Source of the DNA: Chiloscyllium plagiosum
Lineage: Eukaryota
Length of the DNA: 53,994 nt
Reading direction: 5' to 3'
Assembly (NCBI RefSeq): GCF_004010195.1
Contig: NC_057718.1
Span: 73,144,713 to 73,198,706 of the forward strand
Positions 7,587-42,679 of the stretch are shown one piece after another. A program made the translations under genes and the position numbers. The notes under the pieces are model-generated. The model saw only the letters and a list, made by a program, of their open reading frames with translations, did not search any database and was not told the origin of the DNA. Within the stretch, counting starts at the first letter, position 1, and every line of letters starts with the position of its first letter.

Positions 7587-8922
7587 GTTGTGGAGTACAC
7601 AATTGTAAGGCACAGAATTTATAGCAAAAGTTTACAGAGTGATGTAACTGAAATTATACATTGAAAAATACCTTGATTGTTTGTTAAGTCTCTCATCCGT
7701 TGAATGACCATGATAGTTTTAGTTCTTTCACATGTAAATCACAAAATTTTTTTAAAAAGTTACATTCTCAGGTTAACTGTAACAATTGGTGTCAGACCAG
7801 ATAAGATGTTGAAGGTGTTAGCCCCCTGTGTTCTATTGTCTGTGCCACAATGTTTAGACTGATTCTAATCTAAAAAATTAGTTAACAGAGTCTTATATGG
7901 ATGCATGCAGTTTTTGCGCAAAGTACAATGTAACTCTGCAAGTACAAATTCATCCCACAAACGTATGTGTATGCGTGCATGTGGGTTTGTGTGTGTGCAT
8001 ATGTCTTGTGTTTGGGGTTGTGAGTGTCTGTGCGAGAGAGTGTATGTGTGAGTGTAAAGGGGTCTTAAGTCTGTGAGAGGGTCATGTGTGAGTTGGGAGT
8101 GGCAACAGCCTCAGTACTCAACACAAACAATTGCCAATCTCAGAACACCGTCCTACAACTCATCCGCCTTATCCTCGATCACAACGTCTTCGCCTTTAAC
8201 AACCAGTTCTTTATCCAGAAACATGGAACAGCCATGGGGACAAAATTTGCACCCCAATATGCTAACATCTTCATGCACAAGTTCGAACATGACTTCTTCT
8301 CTACGCAGGACCTCCAACCAACATTATGCACCAGGTACATTGATGACATTTACTTCCTCTGGACCCATGGTGTAGGAATCACTGATAAAACTCCACAGTG
8401 ATATCAACAAGTTTCATCCCACCATCAAATTCCCCATGGACTACTCTCGACTATCTGTCTCATTCTTGGACACATCCATCTCTATCAAGGATGGACACCT
8501 CAGCATCACACTCTACTGCAAACCCACAGACAACCTCACAATGCTACACTTCTCCAGCTTCCTTCCAAAACATTTAAACAGCCATCCGCTATCAACAAGC
8601 CCAACGTGTACACCAGCTCTGTTCAGATGAGGAGGAACATGACGGGCACATGGAAGTACTCAGGGATGCCCTCATAAGAATGGGGTACGATGCTCAACTC
8701 ATCGACCACCAGTTCTGACGTGCCACAGCAAGGAACCATAATGACCTCCTCAGGAAACAGACACTTGCTGCAACCAACAGGGTACCCTTCATTGCCCAGT
8801 ACTTCTCAGGAGCCGAGAAACTACGCCATGTTCTTCACAACCTGCAACACATTGTCAGTGAGGATGAGCACCTCGCAAAGCTCTTCCCCACACCTCCACT
8901 GCTTGCCTTTAAACAACCTCAA

Positions 8923-9006
8923 GAAGGGCTTATGCCCGAAACGTCCATTCTCCTGTTCACTGGATGCTGCCTGACCTGCTGCGCTTTTCCAGCAACACAT
9001 TTTCAG
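8923..9006 (+). mobile_element. 84-bp family A Penelope terminal mini-insertion
   Basis: Flanked by an exact 16-bp direct repeat ctttaaacaacctcaa (8907-8922, 9007-9022) inside the family B ORF. Confidence 0.9.
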
Positions 9007-9504
9007 CTTTAAACAACCTCAAACAGATCATTGTTCATAGCAAACTACCCAGCTTTCAAGACAACTCCATACAACCCTGTCACGGTAGGCGCTTTAAGAC
9101 ATGTCTTAGTGTAGACATGGATACAACCATTACACGTGGGGACACCTCCCACCATGTACGTGGCAGGTAATCATGTGACTCAGCCAACGTTGTCCATCTT
9201 ATACGCTGCAGGCAAGGATGCTCTGAGGCATGGTATATTGGTGAAACCGAGCAGAGGCTACTGCAACGAATGAATGGGCACCACACAACAATCAACAGAC
9301 AGGAATGTTCTGTCCCTGTTGGAAAACACTTCGGCGGTTCTGGACATTCAACCTCGGACCTTCAGGTGACCATCCTCCAACGCGGATTTCGGGACAGGCA
9401 GCAGTGAAAAGTGGCCGAGCAGGGGCTGATAGCTAAGTTCGGTACCCATAGGGAGGGCCTCAACCGGGACCTTGGGTTCATGTCACACTACAGGTGACCA
9501 TCAT

Positions 9505-9960
9505 TGCACTCTACACACACAGACACTTCTATATACACACACACTCCTATACATACACAGACACTCTCACACACTCCAACAGACACACACACTCCTGAAC
9601 TCACACATGCACCATCTCACAAACTTAGATCCCTTTACATTCACACACATATACATATACACTCTTTCTCACAGACACTCACAGCCTCCCACCCCACACA
9701 CACACACACACACCACAGGCACTCCTGTACACACACACCTATACACAACACTCCCACACCATCACATGCATCCTCTCACAGACACACTCTCTCTCTCGCA
9801 CAGACACTCACACACACTCCTACAGACACACTCTCACACTCACACGTGCACCCTTTCACAGACTTAGACCCCTTTATACTCACACACATATACACTCTCT
9901 CTCACAGACATTCACAGCCCCCCACTCCAGACAGACACACACACACAAACCCACATGCAC
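9505..9960. repeat. CA-rich low-complexity tract in the Penelope 3' UTR
   Basis: Dense cacaca/ctctct with a repeated block (9616-9695 and 9855-9929). Confidence 0.9.
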
Positions 9961-10342
9961 ATATGTGTTCGTGGGGTGAATTTGTACTTGCAGAGTTACA
10001 TTGTACTTTGCTCAAAAGCTGCATGAATCCATGTAAGACTCTGTTAACTAATTTTTTAGATTAAATTAGTCTAAAGATTGTGGCACAGACAACAGAACAC
10101 AGGAGGCTAACAACTTCAACATCTTATCTGGCCTGACACCAATTGTTACAGTTAACCTGAGAATATAACTTTTTAAAAAAGTTTTGTGATTTACATATGA
10201 AAGAAGTGAAACTATCATGGTCATTCTAACACATGAGAGACTTAACAAACAATCAAGGTATTTTTCAATATGTAATTTTAGTTACATCACACTGTAAACT
10301 TTTGCTATAAATTCTGTGCCTTACAATTGTGTCCTCCACAAC

Positions 10343-10377
10343 CACCTGATGAAGGAGCGGCGCTCCAAAAGCTAGTG
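10343..10377 (+). ncRNA. Minimal type I hammerhead motif (family B), GAAA box mutated
   Basis: CAC CTGATGA a GGAGC ggc GCTCC aAAA GCTA GTG: helix I CAC/GTG, palindromic AGCT helix III, G>A change at a former CpG. Confidence 0.65.
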
Positions 10378-10856
10378 CTTCCAATTAAACCTGTTGAACT
10401 ATAACCTGGTGTTGTGTGATTTTTACCTTCATACATCCAACACTGGCATCTCCAAATCGTGTATTTTACTAATAATTTTATTTATCCATGTAGAAGTTTA
10501 GTCTTTTAAAATACTGTATTTCAATTTCCAGGGATTAGACATGATGAAATTTAATTCTTTTCTTCTGCTAAGGAGGCCTCTACGTGTTTTATGACTCTTG
10601 TGAAAATTATGACTTTTAGGGATTCAATCCCAAACGTATGTAGGACAATCATATTTTGTAATTTTATCATTTAGGAACTTTGATTCTAAAGAAGACTTTA
10701 ATGAGTTATACATTTTTATTGCGGTAAATTCTGACTTGTTTTCAGGAAAGGACTAGAAAACCACTTGGAATAGTCTTTACAAAAAGTGGTGTCTTAAATT
10801 AACATAATTTTCGTGATCTACAGTAAAAGAGTTGACCAGACAGCACAAAAAGCTCA

Positions 10857-10995
10857 GACATAGAGTCGTAGAGGTCTACAAGCACAGAAAATGTCTCTAC
10901 AGATCATCAAGTTTGCTGGTGAAAACAAGCACCTACCCATTCAAATCCCATTTTGCAGCACTTGGCCCGTATGCCTTGGCATCATTAATGCACAT
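10857..10995 (-). mobile_element. CR1 3' tail fragment
   Basis: catagagtcgtagaggtctaca...cccattttgcagcacttggccc matches the other CR1 tails. Confidence 0.6.
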
Positions 10996-11755
10996 CTACG
11001 TTCCTGAATCTGAGTACAATAAACTACGACAATAAGCTGACTATGACAAATAGAGAATTATTACTTAAAGAGATGGTGGTGGATAGGCAATGATAAACAT
11101 TTAAAGAGTGCATGGAGGAACTGCAAAATTGTTCATTGTTTGCTGCCACAAAAATAAAATGATATCCTGACCATGGCTAACAAGGGAAATTAGGGATAGT
11201 ACTAGATACAAGGAACGGCCATGTAAATTAGCCAAAAAGATCGGTGGACCTGAGGAATGGAAGACGTTTAGATTTCATTAAAGGAGTAAAGGGTTGATAT
11301 AAGAGAGGAAATATAGAGAAAACAATAAGCTTGTTGGAAAGATATAAACTGTTGTAAAGAGAAAAAAATTAGTGAAGATAAATATTGATCTCTTACAGTA
11401 GGAAATGGGATGTTATAATGGGATGATATAGTTGGTCTATCATTATAAGAAATGATAGACCAATTAAGTACGTATTTTGGTTCTATCTTCATAAAGGACA
11501 CAAATAACATCCAAAAATGTTGGGAAGCACATGGTCCAGTGAGAGTGAGGGACTGAATGACATCAGTATGAGAAGGGAAATGTGTTGGGGAAATTGATGG
11601 AATTAAAGGCTGACAGATGCCCTGGTCCAAACAGACTGTATCCTAGAGTGCTTAAGGAAGTGGCCTTAGAAATAGAGATGTGTTGGTAGTCATCTTTTAA
11701 GATTCTGTGGACTCTGAAATAGTTCCAATGGATTGGAGGGTAGCTAATGTAACCC

Positions 11756-11895
11756 GAGGAGAAAGTGAGGACAGCAAATGCTGGAGATCAGAGTCAAAAA
11801 GTGTGATGCTGGAAAAGCACAGCAGGAGAGGTAGCATCCAAAGGCTCTCCTGCTCCTTAGAGGCTACCTGACCTGCTGTGTGCCACACTTTTGAC
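11756..11895. mobile_element. 140-bp fold-back Penelope terminal mini-insertion
   Basis: Exact 14-bp direct repeat agctaatgtaaccc (11742-11755, 11896-11909); antisense then sense copy of the terminal sequence. Confidence 0.88.
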
Positions 11896-12037
11896 AGCTA
11901 ATGTAACCCCACTATTTAAAACAGGTCGTAGAGAGAAAATTTTACACTGGTTGGCCCAACATCAGTAATTGGGAAATTGCTGCAGTCCATATAAAAGATG
12001 TAATAACAAAGCACTGGAAAACAAACAGGTCAACATG

Positions 12038-12328
12038 ACACCAATTGTTAAAGTTCACTTGAGAATGTAACTTTTAAAAAGATTTTGTGATTGACATATG
12101 AAAAAACTGAAACCAACATGGTCATTCTAACAGATGAGAGACTTAAACAATCCAGGTCTTTTTCAATGTATAATTTCAGTTACATCACGATGTAAACGTT
12201 TGCTATAAATTCTGTGTCTTACAAACTTATACTCCACAACCACCTGATGAAGGAACAGCGCTCCAAAAGCCAATGCTTCCAGTTAAACCTGTTGGACTAT
12301 AACCTGGTGTTGTGTGATTTTTAACTTT
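12038..12328 (+). mobile_element. Isolated family B Penelope terminal repeat (degenerate hammerhead 12241-12275)
   Basis: Colinear with 10135-10430. Confidence 0.9.
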
Positions 12329-12632
12329 AGGATTGGAGAGACACAGAGGCAGGATATGTGAAAGGTTTGCTTATAAATCTATTGGAATTTATTGAGGATA
12401 TAGTCAGTAGTATTGATCAATGGGAACCAGGAGAGGTAGTTCATTTGGGTTTTTCAGAAGGCTTTCAATAAAGTCTTACAGTAGATATTAGCATGGAAAA
12501 TTAAAGCGTGTGTGGGATTTGGTATAATGTACTGACATGGATAGAGAACTGGCTGGCAGGTAGGAAACAAAGAATAGGGTCTGAATGGTAGCCAGTGACG
12601 ATTGAGATATCACAGGGATCAGTTCTTGGATC

Positions 12633-12722
12633 AGGAGAATCGACATTTCGGGCATAAGCCCTTCTTCCAACACAGTTTTCAAGCTCTGATCTCCAGCATC
12701 TGCAGTCCTCACTTTCTCCTTT
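12633..12722. mobile_element. 90-bp inverted-plus-sense Penelope terminal mini-insertion
   Basis: Exact 15-bp direct repeat atcagttcttggatc (12618-12632, 12723-12737). Confidence 0.9.
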
Positions 12723-13451
12723 ATCAGTTCTTGGATCCCAGCTATTCACCAATATATAGGATTTTGTTTGTCTTGTGAAGTTTCTGTTGTGACATTAATG
12801 GATCTAAAGGATTATTAATAATCAACAATATTCATTACACTTCTGGAATCATGTCTGTAGCTCGTCACCTTATCCAGAGTAACTTCTTTGTTTCTTGTGC
12901 AGACAACCTTAATTGCCCACATGTCACAAGGTAACAAGTTATCAAACAATTGTTCCGTCCTCTCTCCCAGAAAACAAGTTATATTTCTTCAATTCCTTTT
13001 TCCCTCGGAATGGTAATTGGCACGTTGCTTTTAATTCTTTATAACAGTTTCTCCTTGTCCCTTTCATCTTGGGAAACAGTTTATTCCAGGAAGAGTTATT
13101 GGTAATTCTTTCACTCCCTGAAATGATTAAAGTTCTGAAATTTACAATATCACAGTTCCTCCTCTTTGTTCATTATTTTTAATATGATGAACAAACACCA
13201 GTATAATTAAGCACTTTCCATCACACTGGTTCATATTCAAGTTGTGTTGCTATATAGTGTACAATTTAAACAAAATACCCTATTTCATTATGTAGTACAG
13301 ATATATACAAACCAATAATCAATAAATGAATTACAAAATAATGATCAGTAAATAAATCATGAAACATAGTAGGCTATTAATCATGTCATTAAAGACAATA
13401 AGTTATTACTGTGAAATAACACTGCTACCAGTTGCAATATTGATTATCATG

Positions 13452-14115
13452 TCATAACTGAGCTAATTCCATTTTCAGCAGCTGCATTTGTTGGTGACAC
13501 CAATGGCAAAAAATTATAGTAGAAAAAGTAAAATATACGGAAAATAATAACAAGATATGAAATAGAACAAACCCTGACTGCCATGAGTATATCAATACCC
13601 CAATTCCAGATATTGCCCACAGCTATGTTCCTTAATGTTTTTAATATCTGTCTCTATTTTCTGACTCTTCTGCTGTACCTTAACATGTTACATGTGTGCC
13701 TTTTTCAAAGTTCCTTCTATTTCTTCCAGATGTTCCCTTTGTAGGGCACTATGGACCTCATATATTTGTCAATATAACGCCATAATTGAAACAGAATATC
13801 TGAGAAATTCAGAATTATTGGTCCCAATTCATGATGGACATTTTCATCTAACACTACACCTGTGCTTCACATAACTATCCCTCCCGAGTCCTTCTTTTCC
13901 TACAGGACATTCTACAGGGTTTTCAGTCACTTCCATTGAAAATACAAGCACGGTCTGTCGGAGCAATGTAATGGAAGTTCTGCGCAAATTATGAGCACAA
14001 AGTGGACTTGTCTTCTGTGTTACCACTGCACCAAAAACATAATGTATGAGGTTGTAGGTGGAGGTGGCTCCGAACAGTTAGTCCACATATACTACAATAC
14101 TACAAATGATTGTTT
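13452..14115 (-). pseudogene. Candidate decayed retroviral envelope (TM subunit C-terminus)
   Basis: Frameshifted reading: Cys-containing ectodomain, then heptad-like EHLEEIEGTLKKAHM*HVKVQQKSQKIETDIKNIKEHS, Trp-rich GNIWNWGIDI, hydrophobic FVLFHILLLFSVYFTFSTIIFC and a short tail. Confidence 0.45.
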
Positions 14116-14622
14116 GTAGAATAACACAGTCATATATAGAACAATACAGCACACTACAGGCCCTTCGGCCTTTGATCTTGTGCCGACCTTTTTTTTCCTA
14201 CTCTAAGATCAAACTAACTTACATACCATTCATTGCATTTTCCATGTGCCTATCCAAGAGTCGTGTAAATGTCCCTAATTTATCTGACTCTACAGCCACT
14301 GCTGGAAATGCATTCCACGCACCCACCGCTCTGTGTAAAGAACCTACCTCTGACATCTCCCCTGAACCTTCCTCCAATCACCTTAAAATTATGCCCACTC
14401 GTGATAGCCATTTCTGCCCTGGGGAAAAGTACCTGGCTACCCACTCTATCTATGCCTGTCATCATCCTATACACCTCTATCAAGTCACCTCTCACCCTTC
14501 TTTGCTCCAGTGAGAAAATCCTAGCTCACTCAACTTTTCTTCATAAAACATGCCCTCCAGTCCAGGCAGCAACCTGGTAAATCTCCTCTGCACCCTCTCT
14601 AAAGCTTTAACATCCTTCCAAT

Positions 14623-14779
14623 GTTGGATAGAGCTCTCAAAGATAGTGGAATCAAGGGTTATGGAGATAAGGCAGGAAGAGGATACTGATTAGGAATGAT
14701 CAGCCATGATCATATTGAATGGCGGTGCAGGCTCGAAGGGCTGAATGGCTTACTCCTGCACCTATTGTCTATTGTCTAA
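14623..14779 (+). mobile_element. Short CR1 3' end of another family nested antisense
   Basis: gatcagccatgatcatattgaatggcggtgcaggctcgaagggctgaatgg and the tail ctattgtctattgtcta; the host CR1 resumes at ataatgaggcgacc. Confidence 0.8.
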
Positions 14780-14921
14780 TAATGAGGCGACCAGAGCTGA
14801 ATGTAATATTCCAAGTGTTGTCTAACCAGGGCTTTATAGAGCTGCAGCACAATCTCTCAGCTCTTAAATTCAATTCCCCCTGCTAATGAAAGCCAACACA
14901 CCATGTGTCTTCTTAATAAGC

Positions 14922-15134
14922 TGGAAATGTGTTGCTGGAAAAGCGCAGCAGGTCAGGCAGCATCCAGGGAACAGGAGAATCGACGTTTCGGGCATAAGCC
15001 CTTCCAACTTGGATGGCGACTTGAAAAATATATCGATATGGACCCCAAGAACCCTCTGCCTGACCTGCTGCGCTTTTCCAGCAACGCATTTCCAGCTCTG
15101 ATCTCCAGCATCTGCAGACCTCACTTTCTCCTTC
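14922..15134. mobile_element. 213-bp Penelope terminal mini-insertion with a captured 55-bp copy of the flank
   Basis: 15-bp direct repeat gtcttcttaataagc (14907-14921, 15135-15149); 15004-15058 is identical to 15153-15207. Confidence 0.92.
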
Positions 15135-16564
15135 GTCTTCTTAATAAGCCTACCAACTTGGATGGCGACTTGAAAAATATATCGATATGGACCCCAAGAA
15201 CCCTCTGTTCTTCCACACTGCCAAGAATCTTGCCTTTAACCCTGTATTCTGAATTCAAATTCCACCATCCAAAGTGAATCACTTCACACACTTCCAGGTT
15301 GAACTCCATCTGCAGTTCTCAGTCCAGTTCTGCACTCTGTCAATGTCCCGTTGCATCCTACAACAGCCCTCCACACTATCTACCACTTCACCAATTTTTG
15401 TGTCATCGGCAAGCTTATGAACTAACCCTTTCACTTTGTCATCCAAGTCATTTATAAAAATCACAAAGAGCAGAGGTCCCAGAACTGATCCCTGCAGAAC
15501 ACCATTGGTCAGCAAGCTCCAGACTGAATACTTTCCATCTACTATCACCCTCTGTCTTCTATGGGCCAGACAATTCAGTATCCAGACAGCCAGGATTCCT
15601 AGTTTCGGATACCTCCTTACTTTCTGATTGAGCCTACCATAGGGAACCTTCTCAAATGCCTTGCTAAAATCCATGTACAGTACATCTACTGCTTTACCTT
15701 CATCAATGCATTTTGTCATATCCTCAAATAATTCATTTAGGTTAATGAAGGAATGCCTTGCTCCTCACAAAGCCATGCTATCTCTAATCAAACTATGGTA
15801 TTCCAAGTAATCATAAACCCTGTCTGTCAGAATCCTCTCCCAATACTTTACCTACCACAGAGGTGAGACTGACTGATCTGTAATTCTCAGGATTATTCCT
15901 AATCCCTTTCTTGAATTTGCTACCCTCCAACATCTAGCACACTGCAGTCGACAGTGAGAACACAAAGATCATCAGAAAAGACGCAGCAGTTCTTCCCTTG
16001 CTTCCTGTAATAATCTAGGGTATGTCCCGTCTGGCCCATATTTTTCCTTATGATTTTCAAAATTTTCAGCATATCCTCCTCCTTAACATTAACGTGTTCA
16101 AGCATATCAGTTGGTTTCACACTGTCCTCAGGAACATCAAGGTCCCTCTCAGTAGTGAGCACTGAAGCAATGTATTCATTAAGAACCTCCCCTACCTCCT
16201 CCAACACCCCGCGGAAGTTCCCTCCACTATCCCTGATTGGCCCTATTCTCTTTCTAGCTATTCTCTTGTTACTCACAAGTGTAGAATGCCTTAGCGTTTT
16301 CCTTAATCCTACCTGCTAAAGCTTCGTCATGCCCCCCTTCTAGCTCTCTGAAGTCAATTCTTCAGTTCCTTCCTGGCTGCCTTATAACCCTCTAGAACCC
16401 TGTCTGATTCTTGCCTCCTGAACCTTAAGTAAGCTTCCTCTTGGCTAGATGTTCCACATCCCTTGTCACCCAAGGTTCCTTCACCCTACCATCCCTTCTT
16501 TGCCTCAGTGGGACAAACCTGTCCAATGCTATCAGCAAGTGATTCCTAAACAACCTCCACATTT

Positions 16565-16852
16565 AGATTAGATTAGATTACTTACAGTGTAGGAACAGGC
16601 CCTTCGGCCCAACAAGCCCACACTGATCCTCCAAAGAGCAACCCACCCAGACCCATTCCCCTACATTTACCCCTTCACCTAACACTATGGGAAATTTAGC
16701 ATGGCATCTAACCTGCACATTTTTGGACTGTGGGAGGAAACCGGAGCATCTGGAGGAAACCCACGCAGACGCAGGGAGAATGTGCAAACTCCACACAGAC
16801 AGTTGCCTGAGGTGAGAATTGAACCCAGGTTTCTGGTGCTGTGAGGCAGCAG
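16565..16852 (-). mobile_element. HE1-type SINE, slightly 5'-truncated, (TAATC)n tail
   Basis: Reverse complement of 18799-19113. Confidence 0.92.
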
Positions 16853-18798
16853 TGTTGTGCATTTCCCTGAGACCATCTGTTCCCAATTTAGGTGCCCCAG
16901 TTCCTGCTGAATAGCATTGCAATTCCCCTCCCCCTATTAAATACTTTCCGATACTGTCTGATCCTATCCCTCTCTGAGTGTAGGTCAAGGTGTTGTGATC
17001 ACTATTACCAATATGCTCTCCCACTGAGAGATCTGACACCTGGTCTAGTTCATTGCCAAGTACCAAATCCAATATGGCCTCCCCTCTCGTCAGAAGTGGG
17101 TACTGCAGATGCTGGAGATTAGAGTCTGACTCAGCCTCTGATATCGGCACCATGTACCTGACCGTAACTCACCTGTATGGCCTAGAGCATCTTGAAAGAA
17201 ATTCATCCTTTTCAGGTGTAAAAGGTATCATGGCTGCAAAATCTGCCATGTCCATCGCAGACCCCAAGGTTTCTTTGTTAGACAAAGGGGGAGAACCCAT
17301 GGGGGCTTATGTCTTGCTTCCGCCCTGTTTGCGAACTTGCAGCTTTTGTGGTCCACATGCTTGTTCAGGATCACCTAACATACCCAAAGTTTATACATCA
17401 CAGGGCCTTGCCCCACGTCGACTGTGCCTGTTACCCATGCAGGGCCATTTCCAGGGTTTTGGCACCAAACTTTGTCCCCTGAAGTAAACTCTCTTGCATA
17501 GCAGAGTCTTGAATCCAGCTTTGGAGTTTTTGATGCTGTTTCACACTCCTCCCCGCCCACCCCAGATCCCCGCCCCTCCCCCCCACACCCAGGTCTGGGA
17601 AGATCAGGTTTAGCGTGGGATGGAGCTGTCCATCTAGTTGATTGAGGGGTGATCCTATAATCACATAGGAACCAGATAGTTTGCTATCAAATAAAGCTAT
17701 AGGCTGTTGCTTTAAGCCTGCCAAAGTTTGGATTGTTCTTTCCACCAGACTGTTAGATGGTGTGGAATTGTGTTTATATGCCGAATAGCATTCAACATTG
17801 GGAAATACTCAAATTCCCTGCTGACAAATGAAGGCCCATTATCTATGACCAACACTTGGAGCTCATGTATTGCAAAAGATGCTTGCAGTTTTTGTATCAC
17901 GATCCCTATGTTTGACAAATGAACTCCCTGCACATCCAACCACTTGGTCATTCACAATGGAAGAGCCAGCATATCTGACATATAACCGAATCCAGGGTCT
18001 ACCCGACCATTCTCATGAGGGAGGGGGAGCTGCTGATGATAATTTTTGTCCTTGTTGGCATTGTGGGCACTGCCTCACCAATGCAGCTATGTCTGCATCC
18101 AATCCTGTCCACCAGATGTCTTGCCAGAATCTTCATTTTGGAAACCCCGAATGATGCTGGTGGAGTTCAACCAGTATCTGGCAGTGACTCCTTTTCAGGA
18201 CAATAACTTTTGCTGCCCATAATAAAGTACTATCTTCTACGGTGATCTGGTCTTGCCAGGCCCAGAAAGGTGTCAATTCATGTATGATGGCCCTTTTGTT
18301 GTTCCCCCATCACCACCAGCTGTTTTAGTTTTGCCAGGACAAGATCTTTTTGTATCTACAAATGTTTAGCAGAAGAGTGTCTAGAATATGTAAAATCAGT
18401 GCCAGTGATGGCACCACTGGCAGTGTGTCTGCCAGCAGGAAGCAGCTAGTGTCATCCGCATCTGCTATTTAGTCTCCAGAATGGCTTTCAAAGTTATAAT
18501 TGTAAGCACTTAGAATGAGAGCCCACCACTGAATTCGACCTGAAGATATGGGTGGCGTAGCCTTGTCCTCTTTGAGTAACCCGAGCAGGGGTTTGTGGAT
18601 AGTGACTTTTCTAAATTGATGTCTTTAAAGGTATTAGTGGAATTTTCTCAAATCAAAGATAACCTTGAAAACTTCCTTCCCTGTCTTGGCATATTTGCAC
18701 TCTGCATTAGACAAAGTCTGGGAAGCATAGTCTATTGGGCATTCCTCTCCATTGGGCCATCTGTGAGCCAACACTACACCAATATTGTGTAGTGTTGG

Positions 18799-21207: not shown

Positions 21208-21243
21208 GATTAGATTAGATTAGATTACTTACAGTGTGGAAAC
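21208..21243 (-). mobile_element. Tail-only HE1/CR1 stub
   Basis: gattagattagattagattacttacagtgtggaaaca equals the last ~35 nt of the HE1 copies. Confidence 0.8.
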
Positions 21244-21422: not shown

Positions 21423-21529
21423 TGAAATGTCAATTCTCCTGCTCCTCAGATGTAGCCTGACCTGCTGTGCTTTTCTAGCAACACACTCTTGACTCTGATC
21501 TCCAGCATCTGCAGTCCTCATTTTCTCCT
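21423..21529 (+). mobile_element. Penelope terminal mini-insertion without a clear target duplication
   Basis: tgaaatgtcaattctcctgctcc...cagtcctcattttctcct interrupts CR1 cttgact|agaag. Confidence 0.85.
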
Positions 21530-23886
21530 AGAAGTTCTACATGCCTTGTCACCCAAGGTTCCTTCACCATCCCACCCCTTCGTTGCCTCAGTGGGACAAA
21601 CCTGTCCAGCACTATCAGCAAGTGCTCCCTAAACAACCTTCACATTTCTGTTGTGCATTTTCCTTAGAATATTTGTTCCCATTTTAGGCAGCCCAGTTCC
21701 TGTCTAATTGTATTTTAATTCCCCCACCCCCAATTAAGTACTTTCCCACACCGTTTACTCCTATCCCTTTCCATGAGTATTGTAAAGGTCAAGGAGTAAT
21801 GATCAGTGTCACCAAAATTCTCTCCCACCAAGAGATCTGACACTCGGCCTGGTTTGTTGCCAAGCACCAAATCCAGTATGGCCTCCCCTCTAGTTGGTCT
21901 ATCTACATATTGAGTCAAGAATCCTTGACAAAAGCTGCTCCATCCAAACTATTTGAACTAGGAGGCTCCAATCAATATTAGGGAAGTTAAAATCACCCAT
22001 GACAACAACCCTGTAACTTCTGCAATTTTCCAAAATCTGCCTCCCAATCTGCTCCTCCGTGTCTATGTCACTACTAGGGGTTTTGTAGAAAACACCCAAT
22101 AAAGTGTCTGCTCCTTTCCTGTTTCTGATTTTCACCTATAGACTGTAGCCAAACTGTCCTCGATGACCTCCCTTTCTGCAACCTATCCCTTTCTATCCCT
22201 GATTAGCAATGCCACTCCCCCACCTCTTTTACCTCCCTCCCCTCCATTTCTTTTGAACCATCTAAACCCTGGAATATTCAACAATTGTTCCTGCTCCTGT
22301 GATATTCAAGTTTCCTTAATGGCCATAACTTTATAATTCCAAAGACTGATCCATGCTATAAATTCATCACCCTTATTCCTGATGCTTCTATCCAGATAAA
22401 TGATGACTTGGTTTAGATCTTGTAAAATGTTCTCCACCGTCTGCTGAAAAATGACACAGGCTGATGAAATCCCAAATGGCAATCTTGTATCTTGGTGAAA
22501 ACCCTTATGAGTGCTAATTACAACATACTTCTGGGAATCCTCATCTAACTGCAATTGTACATATGCATGGCTAATGCTCATGAAAGACTGCACCCTACCC
22601 TGCCAGCAAAGGCCCTATGCAAGGGATTGGGTATTTACCCAGCTGTGAAAAGCGATTGATTTTTGTTTAAAATCCCTACAAAAGCAAACCAACTGGTCGG
22701 GCTTCACAATTGGTGCCGCTCAATTTGCAAATGGTACAGATTTGATCATTTCTTTGTTTTCCAGGCTCCTGATTTCTGCCTCGACTTTGCACATAAGGCA
22801 AATGGTACTGCACAGACCTTGCAGAATCATTGAATTGTTTCCTGGTGAACACAAGGCCTTAACTCTTTTTAATTATCTTTAGATCTTCCTGAAACACATA
22901 CAGGTATTTAATTAGGAAGTCACTCAGACAGCCATTTTTAAATTGAAGGATGTTGAGCCAATCAAGGTGACACTTTCTCAACCAATTTTGCCCCATCTGC
23001 CTTTTACTACAATCAGTGGTAACAGCTGCTTCTCATACGTGACCAGAACCAAAGTTGTACCCTTAATTTGTAAATGTCTCCCAGTTTTGATGTTCAGTGC
23101 CAACATAAGGGTTGGAATCCACAGTGAATTTTCATAAAGACTGGTTCTGCAATCACTGATGCAGACACACAGTACTGACCTCCATTAGAACCAGGTGACG
23201 TTTTAACCAGATGTTTATATTGGTTCTAATTTAGATGTTGAGCAATTCATCTATTCCAAGCCAAATGTAGGTGGACCTTCTGGGGCGTGCTCACTCCTGG
23301 ATACCAGCTTAAGTGTTCTCTTACTCAATTCAGGCCTAGTGAGACTCTTGCTGTCTGAAGTCTACATACTAGCATCAACTACAATGGCCTGCCGGCCCAG
23401 ATCCTGAAGAAAATGTTAACAATTTGGCTGAGACTTGGCTTTCTTTTGGGGTTTTGCAGTGGGTTGACCTAGAGTCCCTCTGTTTAGCTTATGTCCTGAG
23501 TGAGGCTACACAATTGCTATACAAATGCCGCATTTTCCACTGATAAAACCAGTTGTATGTCTGTTTGAAGTCCAGTGGGCTTCAGCTACTCAGCACTTTT
23601 GCATGGTTACATAATTAGTCCCACATACCAAATAGTGACTCAGCATCTCATTAAGGGTTAAACATTGTCACATGCCTCTGTCAGTCAACTTAACCTTGTC
23701 AATAATCCCCTGGACATGATCCATCTCTGCTGAGCTAAACTGTATCTCAGAATTAGAGGAGGTTTGAGGTCATGATATTCCTTACCAAAATCAGTCAACT
23801 CTTGAAAGGTTTTAATACCTTACGCCTCAGGAAATGTTAGGCTCCTAAAAACTAAAAAAGCTGTGGTCAGGGGAATTACTTGTGCT

Positions 23887-23988
23887 GGATATACGTTTGC
23901 TCGCAGAGCTGGAAGGTTCATTTGTCAGACGTTGCGTCACCATACTAGTAACATCATCAATGAGCTACAAATCTCAAAACTCGCTAAA
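23887..23988 (-). mobile_element. Mini-insertion of a third Penelope-like family with a degenerate hammerhead (23926-23962)
   Basis: Minus strand ca tTGATGA tgttac tagtatg gtgac GcAA cgtc tg; flanked by tacttgtgct / tacttgtact (23877-23886, 23989-23998). Confidence 0.7.
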
Positions 23989-24007
23989 TACTTGTACTTT
24001 TCATCTG

Positions 24008-24100
24008 ATTCCTGAAGAAGGGCTTATGCCTGAAACATCGATTCTCCTGTTCCTTGGATGCTGCCTGACCTGCTGCGCTTTTCCAGCAACACATTTTCAG
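24008..24100 (+). mobile_element. 93-bp family A mini-insertion starting with a hammerhead motif
   Basis: attc CTGAAGA a GGGC ttat GCCT GAAA catc gatt; exact 11-bp repeat cttttcatctg (23997-24007, 24101-24111). Confidence 0.9.
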
Positions 24101-24135
24101 CTTTTCATCTGCCCCAATGTCATTTGCCTGGAAGA

Positions 24136-24610: not shown

Positions 24611-24613
<3 letters not shown>

Positions 24614-33710: not shown

Positions 33711-33945
33711 ACTCTTACATTGCCAAACTACTCTCCATTCAGTCCCACTCAGCTCCAGTCCCTAAGTACTGGCCCCAAATCCATGAGGTAAGTTTTTCTA
33801 ATTTCTTACCTTCTCAGACTGCTCTCCCTCACTCCTATTCAGCTCTGGTCCTGAAGTGGAGGCTCCAAATTCACAAGGTAAGTTTTTATAATCTCTTACT
33901 TTCCCAGACTACTGTCTGCTCGCTCCCACTGAGCTCCGGTCCCAA
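33711..33945. repeat. ~90-bp tandem repeat (about 2.6 units) in the CR1 5' UTR
   Basis: (c/t)tcttac...cagctc..gtcc...ccaaat.ca..aggtaagttttt recurs at ~33712, 33803 and 33893. Confidence 0.8.
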
Positions 33946-33998
33946 AGGAGCAAGTATTCAGCAGAGCTAACTTGTTCCACAACCAATGGATCAAATCT

Positions 33999-35870: not shown

Positions 35871-36529
35871 AATTACATGGGAACACCTAATGGGTTCTTT
35901 TAGGTCTGACCAAAATGATCACAGATAAGATAACATTGCAGTTGTTATCAAGATGCATCAGTAGTCTTGGCAGTTGAATAGACGATTTTCAAGAATCTTG
36001 GTTTTGTCAGCTGATCAAAGTTCCTTTGGCCTATTCTTTATTTTACTTGTATGTAGCACTCAGAATGTAGACTGCAAATCAGGCTAAATAGGGAATAGGT
36101 CTTCGACTTCGACTATCACAGCACACTAATGCTTGAACCCAGGCTGGTACACATGTAAATGTTCAGTCCTACTGGTCCACTCCAATAGAGGGATTTTTTA
36201 CCCTGTCCTTGTGTATTTGTGAGGAGTAAAACAGACATGCCTGCCAAGAGAGGAATGAAAGCCATCCCCCTTGTCCTCTATTCTTGTTGAGGCTATCCCT
36301 GTTTGAAGCTTCCTTGACAATTTACATGTGCTGCATTCTCTGAGCTTCAACCAAGATCTTTCCAATAGTCAGTGAATTTAAATCCACATTTCATTTGTAG
36401 CACACATTTTGGAATTAAAAGTAAAAAATAAATACTTTGCAGTTGTGCTCCACCAACAAACTGGATTAGTCAGATCACTCACAATTCTGTGCTGATTTTT
36501 GACAAACTGATTTGTGTCTCAGTATTCAG

Positions 36530-37612
36530 ATTTTTTTTAGAATTTATTGTTGTGTACTTTTACAATAAAAATACAATATAAGTGTTATAAGTCTTCCTAC
36601 CATGGCATTTGTATTAATGAGAGAAGTCATAAGTAAATTCATAACTAACAATAAAAGTAAATTTAAGACAAAAGTTTATCAAAATCCATTTTAAAGACTC
36701 CTGGTCTCAGAGGAAGCCAATCAAGAGATGATACACACAGCCGGAATGAGACTATGAATCCATGATGAGAACACCACGCCAGGATGAAAACAAAATGCAG
36801 GGACACTGGAAAAATGAGCCAAAAGCCTCTGAAGAAAACCGCCCAAGACCACCACTTAAAACGCCAGGCAGTCGGATCACCAGGCTGGAAGCATCTGCCG
36901 AAGGAAATGCCACTGGGACAAGACCACCATTCCTGGAAGAAAATGGTACATTGGGCCATTGGGAACACCAGGCTGGAAGGGTTTGCCGAAATTAAGCAGG
37001 ACTGCCAACGAGACCTCAACACTGGGACAAACTACAACATTGGGAAACTGCTCCACAGAGCTGAGACGTCACACTGGGAAAGACCACTATTCCAGACTGC
37101 TGGAAGCTACCCATCACTGGAACAGGAGAAGTTCTCAGCTGAAGCTGTTAAATGAAGGTATATAATTGGTAACATTAGAACAGAGAAAGAAAAGGAGAAA
37201 TAATAAAAGCAAGAGACATATAAGACAATCAGAGGGTTAGATAGGTGGACAGAGAGCCTTTTTCCAAGAATGGTGACGGCGAGCACGAGGGGGCATAGCT
37301 TTAAATTGAGGGGTGATAGATATAGGACAGATGTCAGAGATATTTTCTTTACTCAGAGAGTAGTAAGAGTATGGAATGCTTTGCCTGCAACGGTAGTAGA
37401 TTCGCCAACATTAAGTACATTTAAGTCATCATTGGATAAGCATATGAACGTATAGTATAGTTAGATGGGCTTCAGATTGGCATGACAGGTCAATGCAATA
37501 TCAAGGGCTGAAGGGCCTGTACTGCGCTGTAATATTCTATGTTCTATGAGTAGATGAGCTACGGGCTCCTGGGTTGAGAAGCCCACATGTTACTCCACCA
37601 CCGCCATCTTAC
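36530..37612 (-). mobile_element. Candidate non-autonomous retroposon (YY1-like start, AATAAA + A tail), interrupted by CR1
   Basis: Minus strand begins gtAAGATGGCGGtgg at ~37612 and ends acAATAAAttctaaaaaaaaa at ~36530; no RT-like frame. Confidence 0.45.
37215..37548 (+). mobile_element. CR1 3' end
   Basis: TRGHSFKLRGDRYRTDVR...FFTQRVVRVWNALP; tail ttctatgttctatg. Confidence 0.9.
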
Positions 37613-38199
37613 CTCAGGCTTGTTCCTGAAGACTCAGGTTCATAAAGATTGATTAATAAACAGCAAACATAGAGTAAAAGACAAATGCTTGAGGTCAGCT
37701 TTATACAGCTTGTGTCATAAAAAGGATTGGACTGTGCACAATTTATTCAGTTTACTGGTGGTAGGATAATAAGACATAAGGAAAGTGTGAAGAGGTTACA
37801 CAGGGATATCATGGACAGGATAATCGAGTAGACAAGGAAAGTTTCAGCAAGAGAGAATCTAACCATCTCATCTTGGCATTCAATGACATGACCATTGCTG
37901 AAACCCTACTGTCAATATTGTGGGAGTTACCATTAATTAAAAACTTAATTGAGTCAGCTGCATAAAATTGCAACTGCTAAGAGTCAAACATTAGGAATTT
38001 TGCAGCAAATAACTCACCTACCAATTCCTTAAATCCTATTTACCATTACAATTCATAGGTTTGGAGTGTGATGGGATGGATCATTGTGCATTTCTCACAG
38101 TTATACATGGTGTGAACAACTCCAATTAGCCATTGGAGCTCTCTGGAAACAGCCAGCTTCATTTGTTGCTCAGAACAATTTTCACTTCCTTAACACCAA

Positions 38200-38316
38200 A
38201 ATAAAGCAAAAAGCTGAGGATGCTAGAGATCTGAAACAAAAAAACCCAGAAATTCCTAGAGAAACTCAGCAGGTCTGGCACACCTGTGGAAAGTGAAACA
38301 AAGTTAACATTTTCAG
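38200..38316 (-). mobile_element. Old Penelope-like terminal fragment
   Basis: gctgaggatgctagagatctgaaac...gaaactcagcaggtctggca parallels actgcagatgctggagatcagag...cagcaggtcaggcagc. Confidence 0.55.
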
Positions 38317-38440
38317 AACATGGGTGGTCACCATCCTCTCCATGAAGGATGCTATGTGCTTATGTGCCAAATGACTGACAAAAATAAAGGTGTGAATGGT
38401 CTCCTTCACTGAATGCTCACGGTTCTGCATTGTCTCTGGC

Positions 38441-39180
38441 ACATCATAGAACATAGAATGGTACAGCATGTGAACAAGCCCTTTGTGCTAACTATGGTGC
38501 CATTCAAAACTAATCCCATTTGCCCACACATGGTCCGTATCCCTCTATTCCCTGCCTGCTCATGTGTCTGTCTAAATACCTCTTAAACATTGCTATGGTA
38601 TCTGCTTCTAACACCTGAACTGGCAGCACGTTCCAAGCACCTACTACTCTCAATTTTTTGGGAAAATCTTAGTATCCCTACAGTGTGGAAACAGACCCCT
38701 TGGCCCAAAAGGTCCACTACGACTCTCCAAAGAGTATCCCACCCAAACTCATTCTCCATTACGAATGCTACGAATTATGATCTGTTTGAGGTTTGGCGGT
38801 TAGTTAAAGGCATGTAGTGGAGGTATGGGGAAGGTCTTGGTGAGGTGCTCATCCTCATTGATAATATGTTGCAGGTCACGAAGAACAGGGCATAATTTTT
38901 CAGCTCCTGGGAAATACTGAACAACGAAGGGTACCCTGTTAGTTGCAGCACGTGTCTGTCTCCTGATGAGGTCATTACTGTTTCCCTAGCTAACCTCTTG
39001 CTCCGAATATATGTATATAATGTCATGGGTTCTTACTTGCTAAGGACTTTCCATGGGCCCTTCTAGCCCTCCTAATTTCTTGTTTAAATTCTTTTCTGCT
39101 TTCTTTATACTCCTCAAGGGCCTTGTTTTATTTCAGTTTTCTAAACCTAACATATGTTTCCTTTTTTTGACTAACCTTTC
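38441..39180 (-). mobile_element. Patchwork: CR1 tail (38441-38665), HE1 tail (38668-38775), Penelope family B ORF piece (38778-38975), CR1 ORF2 piece (38975-39180)
   Basis: Each segment matches longer copies in the window; 38778-38975 is antisense to ~8740-9030. Confidence 0.8.
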
Positions 39181-39185
39181 AGTAT

Positions 39186-39880
39186 TGTGACACAGTGGTG
39201 AACCCTTCTCTTAATTAAACCAAACACTCAGAAAAAGTTCACCTCGCCTTGTGGTATGTTAAAATATGAGTGACAGAGAACTCCCAAATTCCACAATTTA
39301 AAGAAAAAAATATCAATTTATTCTTTAAGTCTAAAAGTTAACATTAAACAACTATTGACAACTCTAAGCCTCCTTTTCTCTTAACTGTTTATTATATACC
39401 TCCAACTCTATAAGAATATATTGTTCGAATCAAAGCAGTTATTAAAATTGCATCAACTTAATTTCAAAACCATATGGCGGCTGTCGTCTACAGTGTCTGT
39501 CTTCTACTGACTGAAGATCTCCCCGGGACATTTTCTATCTTTTTACTGTGATGATGTTTCATATGAAAAGGTACCTTTGATAGAGAGTGGTTCAATCTTT
39601 TGGGCCTCTCTCTCTCTTGATAGCAGTTATTCTGACTTTCAAAATATCTGCTTTTTTTATACCTCCAACAGCAGATCATTTCATTGATTCGATGTTAGCA
39701 AAGCAATAAGTTCAAACTTAATTGGCTTTTAGTATCCTGGGGCATAATTTAAAATTCAAATTGTTGTCAAAACAGCAACCAACTTAGGTATCCATTTCAC
39801 AGCCAAATGTTACATATTTTCAACTAACCAGTACACTCAGACTGCTCACTCGTCATCACAGGTGTTTGTCAGCTCTCAGT
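39186..39880 (-). mobile_element. Diverged LTR of the Gmr1-like group, reverse orientation
   Basis: tgtgacacagtggtgaaccc...aattaaacca..cagaaaa is antisense to the LTR 3' end; shares aaaggtaccttt and ggggcataatttaaa. The other terminus is unclear. Confidence 0.7.
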
Positions 39881-40063
39881 TCATAGAACGTAGAACATAG
39901 AACATTACAGCCCAGTACAAGCCCTGCGGTCCTCGATATTGCTCTGACCTGTGGAACCAATCTGAAGCCTATCTTCCTACACTATTCCATTTTCATCCAT
40001 ATATTTATCCAATGACCATTTACGTGCCCTTAAAGTTGGCAAGTCTACTAATGCTGCAGGCAG

Positions 40064-40293
40064 CTGGAAATGTGTTGCTGGAAAAGCGCAGCAGGTCAGG
40101 CAGCATCCAGGGAACAGGAGAATCGACGTTTCGGGCATAAGCCCTTCTTCAGGAAAACCATCTGGGTTGTGCGTTTTTGGAACTGGTCCTCCTGGGAGCA
40201 GATGCGACGGAGTCGAAGGAATTGGGAGAATTTGTGTGTTTTTGGAACTGGTCCTCCTGGGAGCAGATGCGGCGGAGTCGAAGGAATTGGGAG
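40064..40293 (-). mobile_element. 230-bp Penelope mini-insertion: terminal repeat plus 2 x 65-bp ORF-derived unit
   Basis: Flanked by aatgctgcaggcag / aatgttgcaggcag (40050-40063, 40294-40307). Confidence 0.88.
40121..40154 (-). ncRNA. Minimal type I hammerhead ribozyme, intact core
   Basis: tc CTGAAGA a GGGC ttat GCCC GAAA cGTC gatt: both boxes, 4-bp helix II, palindromic ACGT helix III, GUC triplet. Confidence 0.78.
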
Positions 40294-41225
40294 AATGTTG
40301 CAGGCAGTGCACCCTACGCCCCACTACTCTCTGAGTAAAGAAGCTACCTCTGACATTTGTCCTATATCTATCACCCCTCAATTTAAAGCTATGTCCCCTC
40401 ATCCTAGCCATCACCTTCCGAGGAGAAAGGCTCTCCCTGTCAATCCTATCTAACCTTCTGATTATCTTATATGTCGCAACTAAGTCACCTCTCAGCCTTT
40501 TCGCGAATGAAAACAGACTCATGTCCCTCAACCTTTCCTCATAAGACATACCAGGCAACATCCTAGTAAATCTTCTCTGCACCTTTTCCAAAGCTTCCAC
40601 ATCCTTCCTATAATGTGGTGACCAGAACTGTATGAAATACTCAAGTGAGGCTGCACCAGTGTTTTGTACAGCTGCAACATGATCTCATGACTCCAAAACT
40701 CAATCCCTCGACCAATAAAGGCTAACACACCATATGCCTTCTTAACAACCCTATCAACCTGGTGCCAACTTTCAAGGATCTTTGTACATGGACACCAAGA
40801 TCTCTCTGCTCATCTACATTATCAAGAATCTTTTCATTAGTCCAGTACTCTCTTCCTGTTGCTCCTTCCAAAGTGAATCACCTCACACTTTGCTGCATTA
40901 AATTCCATATGTCACCTCTCAGCCCAGCTCTGCAGCTTATCTATGCTTATCTAACCTGCAACATCCTTCCACATTATACACAACTCCACCTTACTAACCC
41001 ATCTTTCTGCACCCTCATCTGAGTCATTTATAAAAATGACAAGCAGCAATTGCTCCAAAACAGTACACCACTAGTGACTGAACTCCAGGATGAACATTTT
41101 CCAGCAACCACCACCCTCTATCTTCTTTCAGCTAGTGAATTTCTGATCCAAACCACTAAATTACCCTCAATCCCATGCCTCCATATTTTGAGCAATAATC
41201 AACCATGGGGATCCTTATCAAATGC

Positions 41226-41426
41226 ACAGCAAGTCAGGCAGCATCCAAGGAGCAGGAGAATCGACGTTTCGGGCACGAGCCCTTCTTCAGGCATTCCTGA
41301 AGAAGGGCTCATGCCTGCCCAAAACATCGATTCTCCAGCTCCTTGGATGCTGCCTGACCTGCTGCGCATTTCTAGCAACACATTTTCAGCTCTGATCTCC
41401 AGCATCTGCAGTCCTCACTTTCTCCC
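41226..41426. mobile_element. 201-bp palindromic (head-to-head) Penelope terminal insertion
   Basis: Exact 15-bp repeat atccttatcaaatgc (41211-41225, 41427-41441); dyad centre at 41293/41294. Confidence 0.92.
41259..41294 (-). ncRNA. Minimal hammerhead motif, intact core
   Basis: atgc CTGAAGA a GGGC tcgt GCCC GAAA cGTC gatt. Confidence 0.72.
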
Positions 41427-42679
41427 ATCCTTATCAAATGCCTTACTGAAATCCATATACACCACATCAACTGCTTTACCCTCATTCATCTGCTTGGTCA
41501 CTATCTCAAAGAACTCAATAAGGTTTGTGAGGCATGACCTACCCTTAACAAAACCATGTTGACTATCCCAATCGATGTATTCCTCTCTAGATAATGATAA
41601 ATCCTACCTCTTATAACCTTTTCTAACATTTGACCCATAGTGGAAATAAGGCTCACTGATCTATAATTACCAGCATTGTCCCTACTCCCCTTCTTGAACA
41701 ATGGGACAGCATTTACTATCCTCCAGTTTTCTGGAACTATTCCTGTAGACAATGATGGTATAAAGATCAAAACCAAAGGTTCTGCAATCTCCTTCCTAGC
41801 TTCTCAGAGAATCCTAGGATAAATCCCATTCGGCCCAGGCGACATATCTATTTTCACATTTTCCAGAATTGCTAACACCACATCTTTGTGAACCTCAACC
41901 CTATCTAGTCTAATGACCTATATCTCAGTATTCTCCTCGATAACATTATCTTTTTCCAGTGTGAATACTGTTATGGAGATATGGGTGTACTATAACTTTA
42001 AGAGAGTTAAAAGCTAGCAGTGACAACACCAAGTGTTCTTAATAAGATACAATGTAATATGTGGTCCAGCTAATGGGGTAGCTCGGGTAGCTGGTTTCCT
42101 GGACACAAAAACAAATACAAATGAGGCCAGTCAGTTTAAATTATACCCCAAAAAGAAAACCAAACTCCAATCAACTTTGAATTTAGTATATTGACAATCT
42201 TAAAAGCCAATGACACAATCTGATGCTTGAGGGGTATAAGATTGGGGAAGATTGAGCAGTTGGGATCAGAACTGCCAAGCCAGCATGTAGAGACTTCTCA
42301 AAAAATAGCTCTCTTAAAGGTACCTTTATTGATTAGTAACCTGTGAAGCAGAATCCCCAAGAAGATGAAAGAAGACAGGAATACAGAGAAGAACCAAAAG
42401 CTGTCTGGTTTTGAGATAAGTAGTTTGTTTTGTAAATCTTAATTGAGAGTTTTGTTGGGCTAGTATTATAGAAAGGACAGTAAAAGATAGATTAGAGGAA
42501 GGAGTTGTAAACAGTCGTTCGTTAATTATTCTCTGTTATACTTTAAGAAATAAAGTTGTTAAGTTTTCCTTTAAATAGTTCTTGCCTGTCAAATTTTCAC
42601 AGATTACTGCATGGGATAAATCTTTTCTGTATCGTTGGTTTTAAATTAGCAGAGGGGGTTAACCCATGTTGTAATAATT

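What the first reader, a model, noticed from the sequence alone, without database searches (positions are those of the whole stretch)
8907..41441. A population of tiny Penelope-derived, hammerhead-associated insertions with 10-16 bp target duplications
Seen: separate 84-230 bp non-coding inserts at 8923, 11756, 12633, 14922, 21423, 24008, 40064 and 41226 share one ~130-nt module (attcCTGAAGAaGGGCttatGCCCGAAAcGTCgattctcc...cagcatctgcagtcctcactttctcct). Seven are bracketed by 11-16 bp direct repeats of the interrupted sequence. A different family does the same at 23887. Established: Penelope-like elements carry minimal type I hammerheads in their terminal repeats. Inference: the ribozyme-bearing terminus moves as its own SINE/retrozyme-like unit, or by abortive Penelope integration. 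Intact CpGs and exact duplications make these among the youngest events here.
Basis: partly seen in the sequence, partly recalled or inferred. Interest (0 to 1): 0.72.

Follow-up and report, generated by a model that had tools for sequence, protein, structure and literature searches.

The report
Cap-ended stubs of a Penelope retrotransposon
These short insertions are real and are the end piece of a very common Penelope-type jumping gene, not a separate ribozyme element; they likely arise when its enzyme copies only the first 95-130 letters of its own, likely capped, RNA, often likely from both sides of the cut DNA, which makes them a useful record of how this poorly understood class likely inserts.

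Summary
All eight inserts exist; seven have 11-16-bp duplications, and four have exact empty sites in paralogous host repeats. The module is the 3' terminus (hammerhead plus 35-bp 'tail') of a Neptune-type Penelope-like element, present at about 134 clusters per Mb genome-wide, so the window is ordinary. It is not a separate SINE or retrozyme: copies continue into the 3' UTR and ORF, and only 2 of 8 window inserts keep an intact hammerhead core. 5' ends pile up at one site four bases before the core (38 of 58 arms at risk) and not at the ribozyme cut (0 of 68). Genome-wide, the foreign base before that site is G 7,390 times against T 1,347, reversed one base further in: a likely cap signature. 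Of 57 two-arm inserts, 52 pair one long with one short end. Best reading: internally primed cDNAs of the capped mRNA leader, often primed from both target ends. 'Youngest events' fails: one insert is shared with two related species. The layout is in print; I did not find the cap-ended stub or double-priming evidence in print. This scan reported the same reading before, on this genome and others.

The parts
8923..9006 (+). One-arm stub, module +8 to +95 (short end), hammerhead core incomplete; 16-bp duplication 8907-8922/9007-9022; sits in the decayed ORF of another Penelope-like family
11756..11895 (.). Head-to-head two-arm stub: long arm +49 to +131 on minus, short arm from +36 on plus; no hammerhead; 14-bp duplication; older variant, shared with organisms B and C
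12633..12722 (.). Two-arm stub without overlap: inverted +7 to +46, forward +80 to +130; 15-bp duplication; 5-nt overlap of the inverted arm with the duplication
14922..15134 (.). Two-arm stub: inverted +10 to +95, a 65-bp copy of the right flank (14994-15058 = 15144-15207), forward +54 to +130; 15-bp duplication; inside a CR1-type LINE
21423..21531 (+). One-arm stub +25 to +133 (long end), decayed CpGs, no duplication; inside a CR1-type LINE
23887..23988 (.). Second Penelope-like family, same layout: inverted hammerhead arm ending at that family's short end, plus a forward piece of its tail; 10-bp duplication with one mismatch
   Evidence: 13 homologous hits in held loci
24008..24100 (+). One-arm stub exactly +1 to +95, preceded by G (last base of the 11-bp duplication); core present but cleavage triplet and stem II changed at CpGs
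40064..40293 (-). Stub +2 to +95 with intact core, preceded by two 65-bp copies of the element's own RT-region sequence (40167-40296 tandem); 14-bp duplication with one mismatch
41226..41426 (.). Two-arm stub: inverted +1 to +75 (intact core), forward +1 to +129 with a 4-bp insertion; 15-bp duplication; inside a CR1-type LINE
4423..6937 (.).
17094..17129 (-). Tail-only piece, +90 to +124; no duplication found

Best explanation
The inserts are copies of the hammerhead-and-tail end of a Neptune-type Penelope-like element, likely made when the element's reverse transcriptase starts inside its own, likely capped, RNA at about +95 or +130 and runs off the RNA's 5' end at +1. Shown: the element's identity, two preferred 3' ends 35 bp apart, a pile-up of 5' ends at +1 with an excess of foreign G, no pile-up at the ribozyme cut, and long+short pairing of arms. 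Inferred: (1) +1 (TC|ATT, initiator-like) is a transcription start and the G is copied from the cap; (2) the endonuclease leaves a staggered break of about 13-15 bp and both 3' ends prime, one at +130 and the other near +95 through 2-10 nt of pairing with the RNA; (3) the two cDNA ends are joined head to head by a few shared bases or filler, or one arm alone is kept; (4) the stubs lack the sequence beyond +130 that the Anolis enzyme needed in vitro, so they are predicted dead ends made afresh from ORF-bearing (or internally deleted) source copies. The hammerhead is a passenger in this process.
For: Identity: 13 of the 30 best genomic hits continue directly upstream into one shared 3' UTR; a natural copy has a 561-aa frame with RT (Pfam RVT_1, E 1e-8) and GIY-YIG (E 5e-4, 20.7 bits, under the 22.6 cut-off) and a C-x4-C-x2-C linker. 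In 156 random 10-kb loci: 3' ends of 92 young arms fall at +78 to +101 or +125 to +129; 38 of 58 arms at risk end between -10 and +10 (0.03-0.05 per nt against 0.003-0.006 upstream), 0 of 68 at +31 to +36. Whole-genome counts of the base before +1: G 7,390, A 3,395, T 1,347, templated C 31,365; before +2: G 1,735, T 4,036. Of the first 40 G hits, 39 are true ends; in 20 the G is explained neither by the duplication nor by the other arm (my reading). Two-arm inserts: 52 of 57 long+short, while one-arm inserts split 76 long to 68 short. Overlap with the duplication of 2 nt or more: 14 of 21 at the inverted short end (null 17%), 15 of 31 at the long end (null 20%). Seven forward arms stop at +90 to +100 and none at +61 to +85, as expected if a second primer near +95 blocks the first cDNA. 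The second family at 23887 shows the same layout. Frangieh 2024 (PMC11167929, main text read): two internal starts define the tail, both strands are extended, hammerhead cleavage is not needed.
Against: No RNA 5' end was observed; the start site and cap rest on DNA junctions alone. In 19 of the 40 G hits the G coincides with a target or arm base. 5' ends spread from -8 to +16, not one base. Fourteen arms end at +46 to +60, unexplained (several are short matches that may belong to other families). Arms of one insert agree at 220 of 239 polymorphic calls (53% when permuted), which fits one RNA but also a hairpin; 10 of 50 pairs differ at +43. Only 26 of 144 one-arm clusters gave a duplication. 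Frangieh 2024 found no homology between primer and RNA in vitro, unlike the overlaps here. No intact full-length ORF was seen; the candidate loci were partly withheld.
Confidence: 0.72

Rival explanations
1. Ordinary 5' truncation of read-through RNA, with the reverse transcriptase stalling or the RNA breaking at the 5' edge of the hammerhead fold; the G is generic untemplated addition.
For: 22,181 exact copies continue to -4 or beyond, so read-through templates are common; +1 is also the 5' edge of stem I; ends are spread over about 25 nt.
Against: The G excess holds at +1 (G:T 5.5) and reverses at +2 (0.43). The region folds no better than shuffles (z about 0), stem I has only three pairs, and the stronger stem II (+13 to +24) has few ends.
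Confidence: 0.1
2. Two-arm inserts come from self-priming (fold-back) of one strand, as proposed for rotifer Penelopes on an antisense template, not from two target-primed cDNAs.
For: Arms share haplotypes (220 of 239); perfect palindromic joints are frequent among the A hits; Arkhipova 2013 (PMC3846280, passages) argues for this.
Against: A fold-back cannot give arms without overlap or an inverted arm that reaches further upstream than the forward arm (L084, L112, L128, L204, window 12633), nor the stop of forward arms at +90 to +100, nor a tail on one arm only, without extra deletions. The G excess points to a sense template.
Confidence: 0.1
3. The terminus is a self-propagating SINE or retrozyme: short copies are transcribed, cut by the hammerhead, perhaps circularised, and re-inserted by Penelope protein.
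For: About two thirds of young inserts lack upstream sequence (41 of 60); some loci hold two units with the same 5' start, as a circle or a jump on one RNA would give (L058, L059, L062); animal retrozymes are reported to derive from Penelope termini (bioRxiv 10.64898/2026.07.22.740005, main text read).
Against: No pile-up at the cut: purine before +33 1,068 against 767 for the matched control, and 10 of the first 20 are point changes in longer copies. Only 2 of 8 window inserts keep the core. Each joint differs, so two-arm forms are not copied as units. Haplotypes are shared with long copies. Units are not cut-to-cut.
Confidence: 0.06

Closest known systems
EN+ Penelope-like elements, Neptune clade (Craig 2021, PMC8557442, passages)
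   Same: RT then GIY-YIG, CX2-5CxxC linker, heavy 5' truncation, inverted 5' copy, 30-40-bp tail often at one end only, hammerhead in the terminal repeat.
   Different: Here most copies are under 250 bp, and the truncation point is tied to one site with an extra G; the passages read give no such figures.
Poseidon PAc of Anolis (Frangieh 2024, PMC11167929, main text)
   Same: Two internal start sites that define the tail, both strands extended, AT-rich targets (duplications 66% AT against 59% background), hammerhead cleavage dispensable.
   Different: Other clade; starts lie before the ORF's first ATG (+167) here and inside the ORF there; they saw no primer-RNA homology and no strand bias, while here the ends pair long+short with 2-10 nt overlaps.
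Adineta Pen2a and relatives (Arkhipova 2013, PMC3846280, passages)
   Same: Inverted terminal repeat, one-sided 31-bp tail, 8-10-bp duplication, initiator-like motif in the repeat, palindromic joints.
   Different: Few copies with ORFs; explained there by self-priming on an antisense template, which the data here disfavour.
Non-LTR retrozymes (Cervera and de la Pena 2020, PMC7229834, passages; Li 2026 bioRxiv)
   Same: Type I hammerhead, Penelope ancestry, long duplications.
   Different: Retrozymes are head-to-tail repeats of 170-400-nt units with a ribozyme in each; these stubs are single or head-to-head and mostly lack a whole core.
LINE-1 twin priming (recalled, not read here)
   Same: Both ends of a staggered break prime; 5' part inverted; second primer uses short pairing.
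   Different: L1 arms do not overlap; here both arms usually copy +1 to +95, and both starts are internal.

Membership tests
EN+ Penelope-like element | RT followed by GIY-YIG endonuclease in one frame, joined to the terminus | tested here: met
   L072: 561-aa frame, RVT_1 above cut-off, GIY-YIG E 5e-4 just under cut-off, module 150 bp after the stop
EN+ Penelope-like element | Terminal direct repeat (pLTR) that also precedes the ORF | tested here: met
   Module precedes an ATG at +167 and recurs after the 3' UTR in L055
EN+ Penelope-like element | Optional 30-40-bp tail and inverted 5' copy | tested here: met
   Ends at about +95 and +130; 57 of 201 clusters two-armed
EN+ Penelope-like element | Intact full-length autonomous copy | tested here: inconclusive
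   Four long-frame candidates were partly withheld (N); none showed a whole ORF
Neptune clade | CX2-5CxxC linker before the GIY-YIG motif | tested here: met
   C-x4-C-x2-C in L072; criterion from PMC8557442; shared with Nematis
Neptune clade | RT phylogeny with named members | not tested
   No named reference set was fetched
Minimal type I hammerhead | CUGANGA and GAAA cores, stem II, NUH triplet | tested here: met
   Present in source copies and in 2 of 8 window inserts; no Rfam match; stem I three pairs, stem III a 2-bp palindrome
Minimal type I hammerhead | Self-cleavage | not testable with these tools
   Needs an in vitro assay
Non-LTR retrozyme | Head-to-tail repeats with a whole ribozyme in each unit | tested here: not met
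   No such array in the window; 56 of 57 two-arm clusters are head-to-head; rare direct pairs include ORF start
Non-LTR retrozyme | Unit ends at the cleavage site | tested here: not met
Non-LTR retrozyme | Circular RNA | not testable with these tools
   No suitable RNA data were laid
SINE | Own masters: fixed unit with private diagnostic changes | tested here: not met
   Same haplotypes in long (L128, L192, L201) and short copies; 9 sites only, so a weak test
Catalogued non-autonomous family (Repbase/Dfam) | Entry exists | not testable with these tools
   No repeat library is on hand

The most novel reading that the evidence does not exclude
Penelope-type enzymes act as a pair on one capped sense RNA, each using a different internal start (+130 and about +95) on each end of a staggered break. 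Because the starts lie at the front of the mRNA, the default product is a 100-230-bp cap-ended stub, and jumps from the cap to the RNA's own 3' end (L053, L058, L059, L062) would be the route that rebuilds tandem repeats and seeds retrozymes. This would settle the sense-versus-antisense question for inverted Penelope ends.
Probability: 0.4. Interest if true: 0.65.

Novelty: new member of a known kind. Interest (0 to 1): 0.45.

Why it matters
The element class and its layout are known, so the window itself is ordinary. The population matters as data: how Penelope-like elements finish integration, why their ends are inverted and why only one end has a tail are stated as open in PMC11167929 and PMC3846280. 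Roughly 140,000 young copies (extrapolated) give sharp, testable predictions: a capped start at +1, one start site per target end, short primer pairing, and no role for ribozyme cleavage. It also warns that hammerhead-bearing short repeats in such genomes need not be retrozymes.

Tried and rejected
Rfam scan of the window: no hammerhead family hit, three chance hits. Single-strand folds: no stability beyond shuffles. PDB sequence search with the RT-EN frame: no hit. Laying four DNA runs on 11000-16700 was swamped by repeats: none of the 15 joints shown (of 6,584) skips an insert, which proves nothing; only contig ends were usable; the other five inserts were not examined in relatives. For 12633, organism B contigs reach 23-26 bases into the insert, under the tool's 31-base rule. 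The worry that the +1 pile-up comes from sister families with another 3' UTR is real for older copies (about ten share a different upstream sequence); it was handled by restricting to arms of 88% identity or more, reading junctions and using a young-family pattern. A search by sequence of earlier findings gave one unrelated hit. Paper searches that found nothing on cap-ended Penelope stubs, twin priming in Penelope or these repeats in sharks; PMC12602865 (passages) held nothing relevant. Protein database, structure prediction and complex tools were not used.
Full report
Setting. The window lies in a 3.56-Gb animal genome, is 42% GC with CpG at 0.23 of expectation, and is dense in CR1-type LINE and LTR-element remnants. 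That it looks like a shark genome is my recollection of such repeats, not a call result. Positions below are numbered on a natural copy (L055), with +1 the A of ATTCC, four bases before the hammerhead core.

Observation. All eight inserts are there. Six have exact duplications of 11-16 bp, 40064 has 14 bp with one mismatch, 21423 has none; the other family at 23887 has 10 bp with one mismatch. A looser test fired at 12 of 289 random placements. Paralogous copies of the host repeats are empty with an overlap equal to the duplication in 25 of 30, 15 of 23, 8 of 16 and 3 of 3 pairs for 41226, 14922, 40064 and 11756; the one paralog for 8923 was inexact. So these are true insertions. They are less uniform than described: four are head-to-head two-arm inserts, one carries two 65-bp pieces of the element's ORF, one a 65-bp copy of its own flank, and only two keep a whole hammerhead core. 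Of 32 scorable CpG positions 21 are intact. At least one insert is therefore older than these species, and no empty orthologous site was seen; only three inserts were within the stretch laid.

What the module is. Thirteen of the 30 best genomic hits continue directly upstream into one shared sequence, which leads to a GIY-YIG and RT frame. L072 has 561 open codons with RVT_1 above cut-off, GIY-YIG just under it, and a C-x4-C-x2-C linker, the mark that Craig 2021 gives for Neptune and Nematis (PMC8557442, passages). Beyond +130 the module runs into an ORF with ATG at +167. It is thus the terminal repeat of an endonuclease-bearing Penelope-like element. All 150 scored hits to the endonuclease region were 81-100% identical. 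No whole intact ORF was seen; candidate loci were partly withheld.

Unbiased sample. I took 156 stretches of 10 kb at round coordinates (1,503,854 readable bases). They hold 201 module clusters (134 per Mb; clusters within 120 bp of a stretch end dropped), 60 of them young (88% identity or more), about 475,000 and 140,000 when extrapolated, older sister families included in the first figure. The window's 11 clusters are unremarkable. Of the 60, 19 reach upstream of -21, 11 reach the ORF end and 3 the RT part; 7 border withheld bases, so these are lower bounds. Duplications were found in 39 of 57 two-arm and 26 of 144 one-arm clusters, 38 of 65 being 14-16 bp.

3' ends. Among 92 young arms, ends fall at +78 to +101 (42) or +125 to +129 (46), four earlier. 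This is the 30-40-bp tail of the literature, which Frangieh 2024 traced to two internal reverse transcription starts (PMC11167929, main text read). Of 57 two-arm clusters 52 pair one long with one short end, 3 short-short, 1 long-long, 1 tail-to-tail, though one-arm clusters split 76 to 68; in all held loci 52 of 53 young pairs did so (overlapping set). The inverted short end overlaps the duplication by 2 nt or more in 14 of 21 cases (null 17%), the long end in 15 of 31 (null 20%); three rows outside -6 to 10 were dropped.

5' ends. Thirty-eight of 58 arms at risk end between -10 and +10, about ten times the upstream rate; none of 68 ends at +31 to +36, where the ribozyme would cut; 7 of 46 end at +90 to +100 and none at +61 to +85; 14 end at +46 to +60, unexplained. 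Junction reading shows unique flank or the other arm upstream, not a sister family's UTR, for the young arms, though that confound exists for older copies. Whole-genome exact counts of the base before +1 are C 31,365 (templated; 22,181 extend to -4), G 7,390, A 3,395, T 1,347; many A hits are perfect palindromic joints counted twice. One base further in, G is 1,735 and T 4,036 (C not counted). Of the first 40 G hits listed, 39 are true ends and one a point change; in 20 the G is explained neither by duplication nor by the other arm, four of them with a single G between a 12-15-bp duplication and +1; in 19 it coincides with a flanking G; two hits are one duplicated event (my reading). An extra G at a retrocopy's 5' end as a copy of the cap is recalled knowledge. 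At the cut site, purine before +33 gives 1,068 and the matched control 767, and 10 of the first 20 are point changes in longer copies: at most a small contribution. TC|ATT resembles an initiator (recalled consensus); Penelope terminal repeats hold the promoter in Drosophila (PMC2377424, passages and Discussion) and an initiator-like motif in rotifers (PMC3846280, passages).

Mechanism. Shown: identity, two 3' ends, pile-up and G excess at +1, long+short pairing, overlaps. Inferred: a capped RNA starts at +1; the enzyme starts inside it at +130 or near +95, so a complete run gives only 95-130 bases; both ends of a staggered break prime; cDNA ends join by a few shared bases or filler, sometimes after copying flank or ORF pieces as at 14922 and 40064. 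The arms agree at 220 of 239 polymorphic calls against 53% when permuted, so both mostly come from one RNA or one source; some pairs differ (10 of 50 at +43). Arms that do not overlap, or an inverted arm reaching further upstream, do not fit a simple fold-back, the model of Arkhipova 2013. Loci in which a second unit follows ORF-start sequence and both units begin at the same base (L058, L059, L062) suggest a jump from the RNA's 5' end to its own 3' end; a circle is not excluded. The 23887 insert repeats the inverted-arm-plus-tail layout in a second family.

Against a SINE or retrozyme. Retrozymes are head-to-tail repeats with a ribozyme in each unit (PMC7229834, passages; bioRxiv 10.64898/2026.07.22.740005, parts 1-3 of 5). 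These stubs are single or head-to-head, do not end at the cut, mostly lack the core, and share haplotypes with long copies. Whether a repeat library already lists the stub could not be tested.

Novelty. Truncation, inverted copy and one-sided tail are in print. I found no paper on cap-ended stubs or double priming in Penelope elements; the library lacks most subscription papers and I read no supplements. I recorded this reading before seeing that earlier agents of this scan had reached it on this and other genomes; those notes are not independent support. One of them prompted the cut-site count. Verdict: real, a new member of a known kind, with a mechanistic signal of moderate specialist interest.

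Noticed in passing
window 7496-10460: A third Penelope-like family with its own hammerhead variant forms a 3-kb head-to-head insert (arms 7496-8101 and 9829-10433, 90% alike) around a decayed ORF; the 8923 stub is nested in it. A further piece lies at 12036-12327. No duplication found.
   Followed up: partly
window 14994-15058: 65-bp copy of the right flank placed between the two arms of the 14922 insert, resembling a locally templated repair insertion.
   Followed up: partly
window 40167-40296: Two tandem 65-bp copies of the element's RT-region sequence inside the 40064 insert, suggesting repeated template jumps.
   Followed up: partly
L244:385-560 and window 41226: An independent stub sits within 3 bp of the same position of a CR1-type LINE as the 41226 insert, and L243 about 70 bp away; a possible target preference, one coincidence only.
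   Followed up: no
L021:2235-2400: A two-arm stub nested in the ORF of a long copy of its own family.
   Followed up: no
L053, L058, L059, L062 (about 1380-1940): Direct pairs in which the module follows 100-340 bp of ORF start and both units often begin at the same base; possible jump or circle products and possible retrozyme seeds.
   Followed up: partly
random loci, module +46 to +60: A second cluster of 5' ends (14 of 92 arms), seven at +50; unexplained.
   Followed up: no
window 43473-43874 and 46803-47817: Remnants of an LTR retrotransposon (gag-like and RT/RNase H-like frames, label from recall), interrupted by LINE pieces.
   Followed up: no
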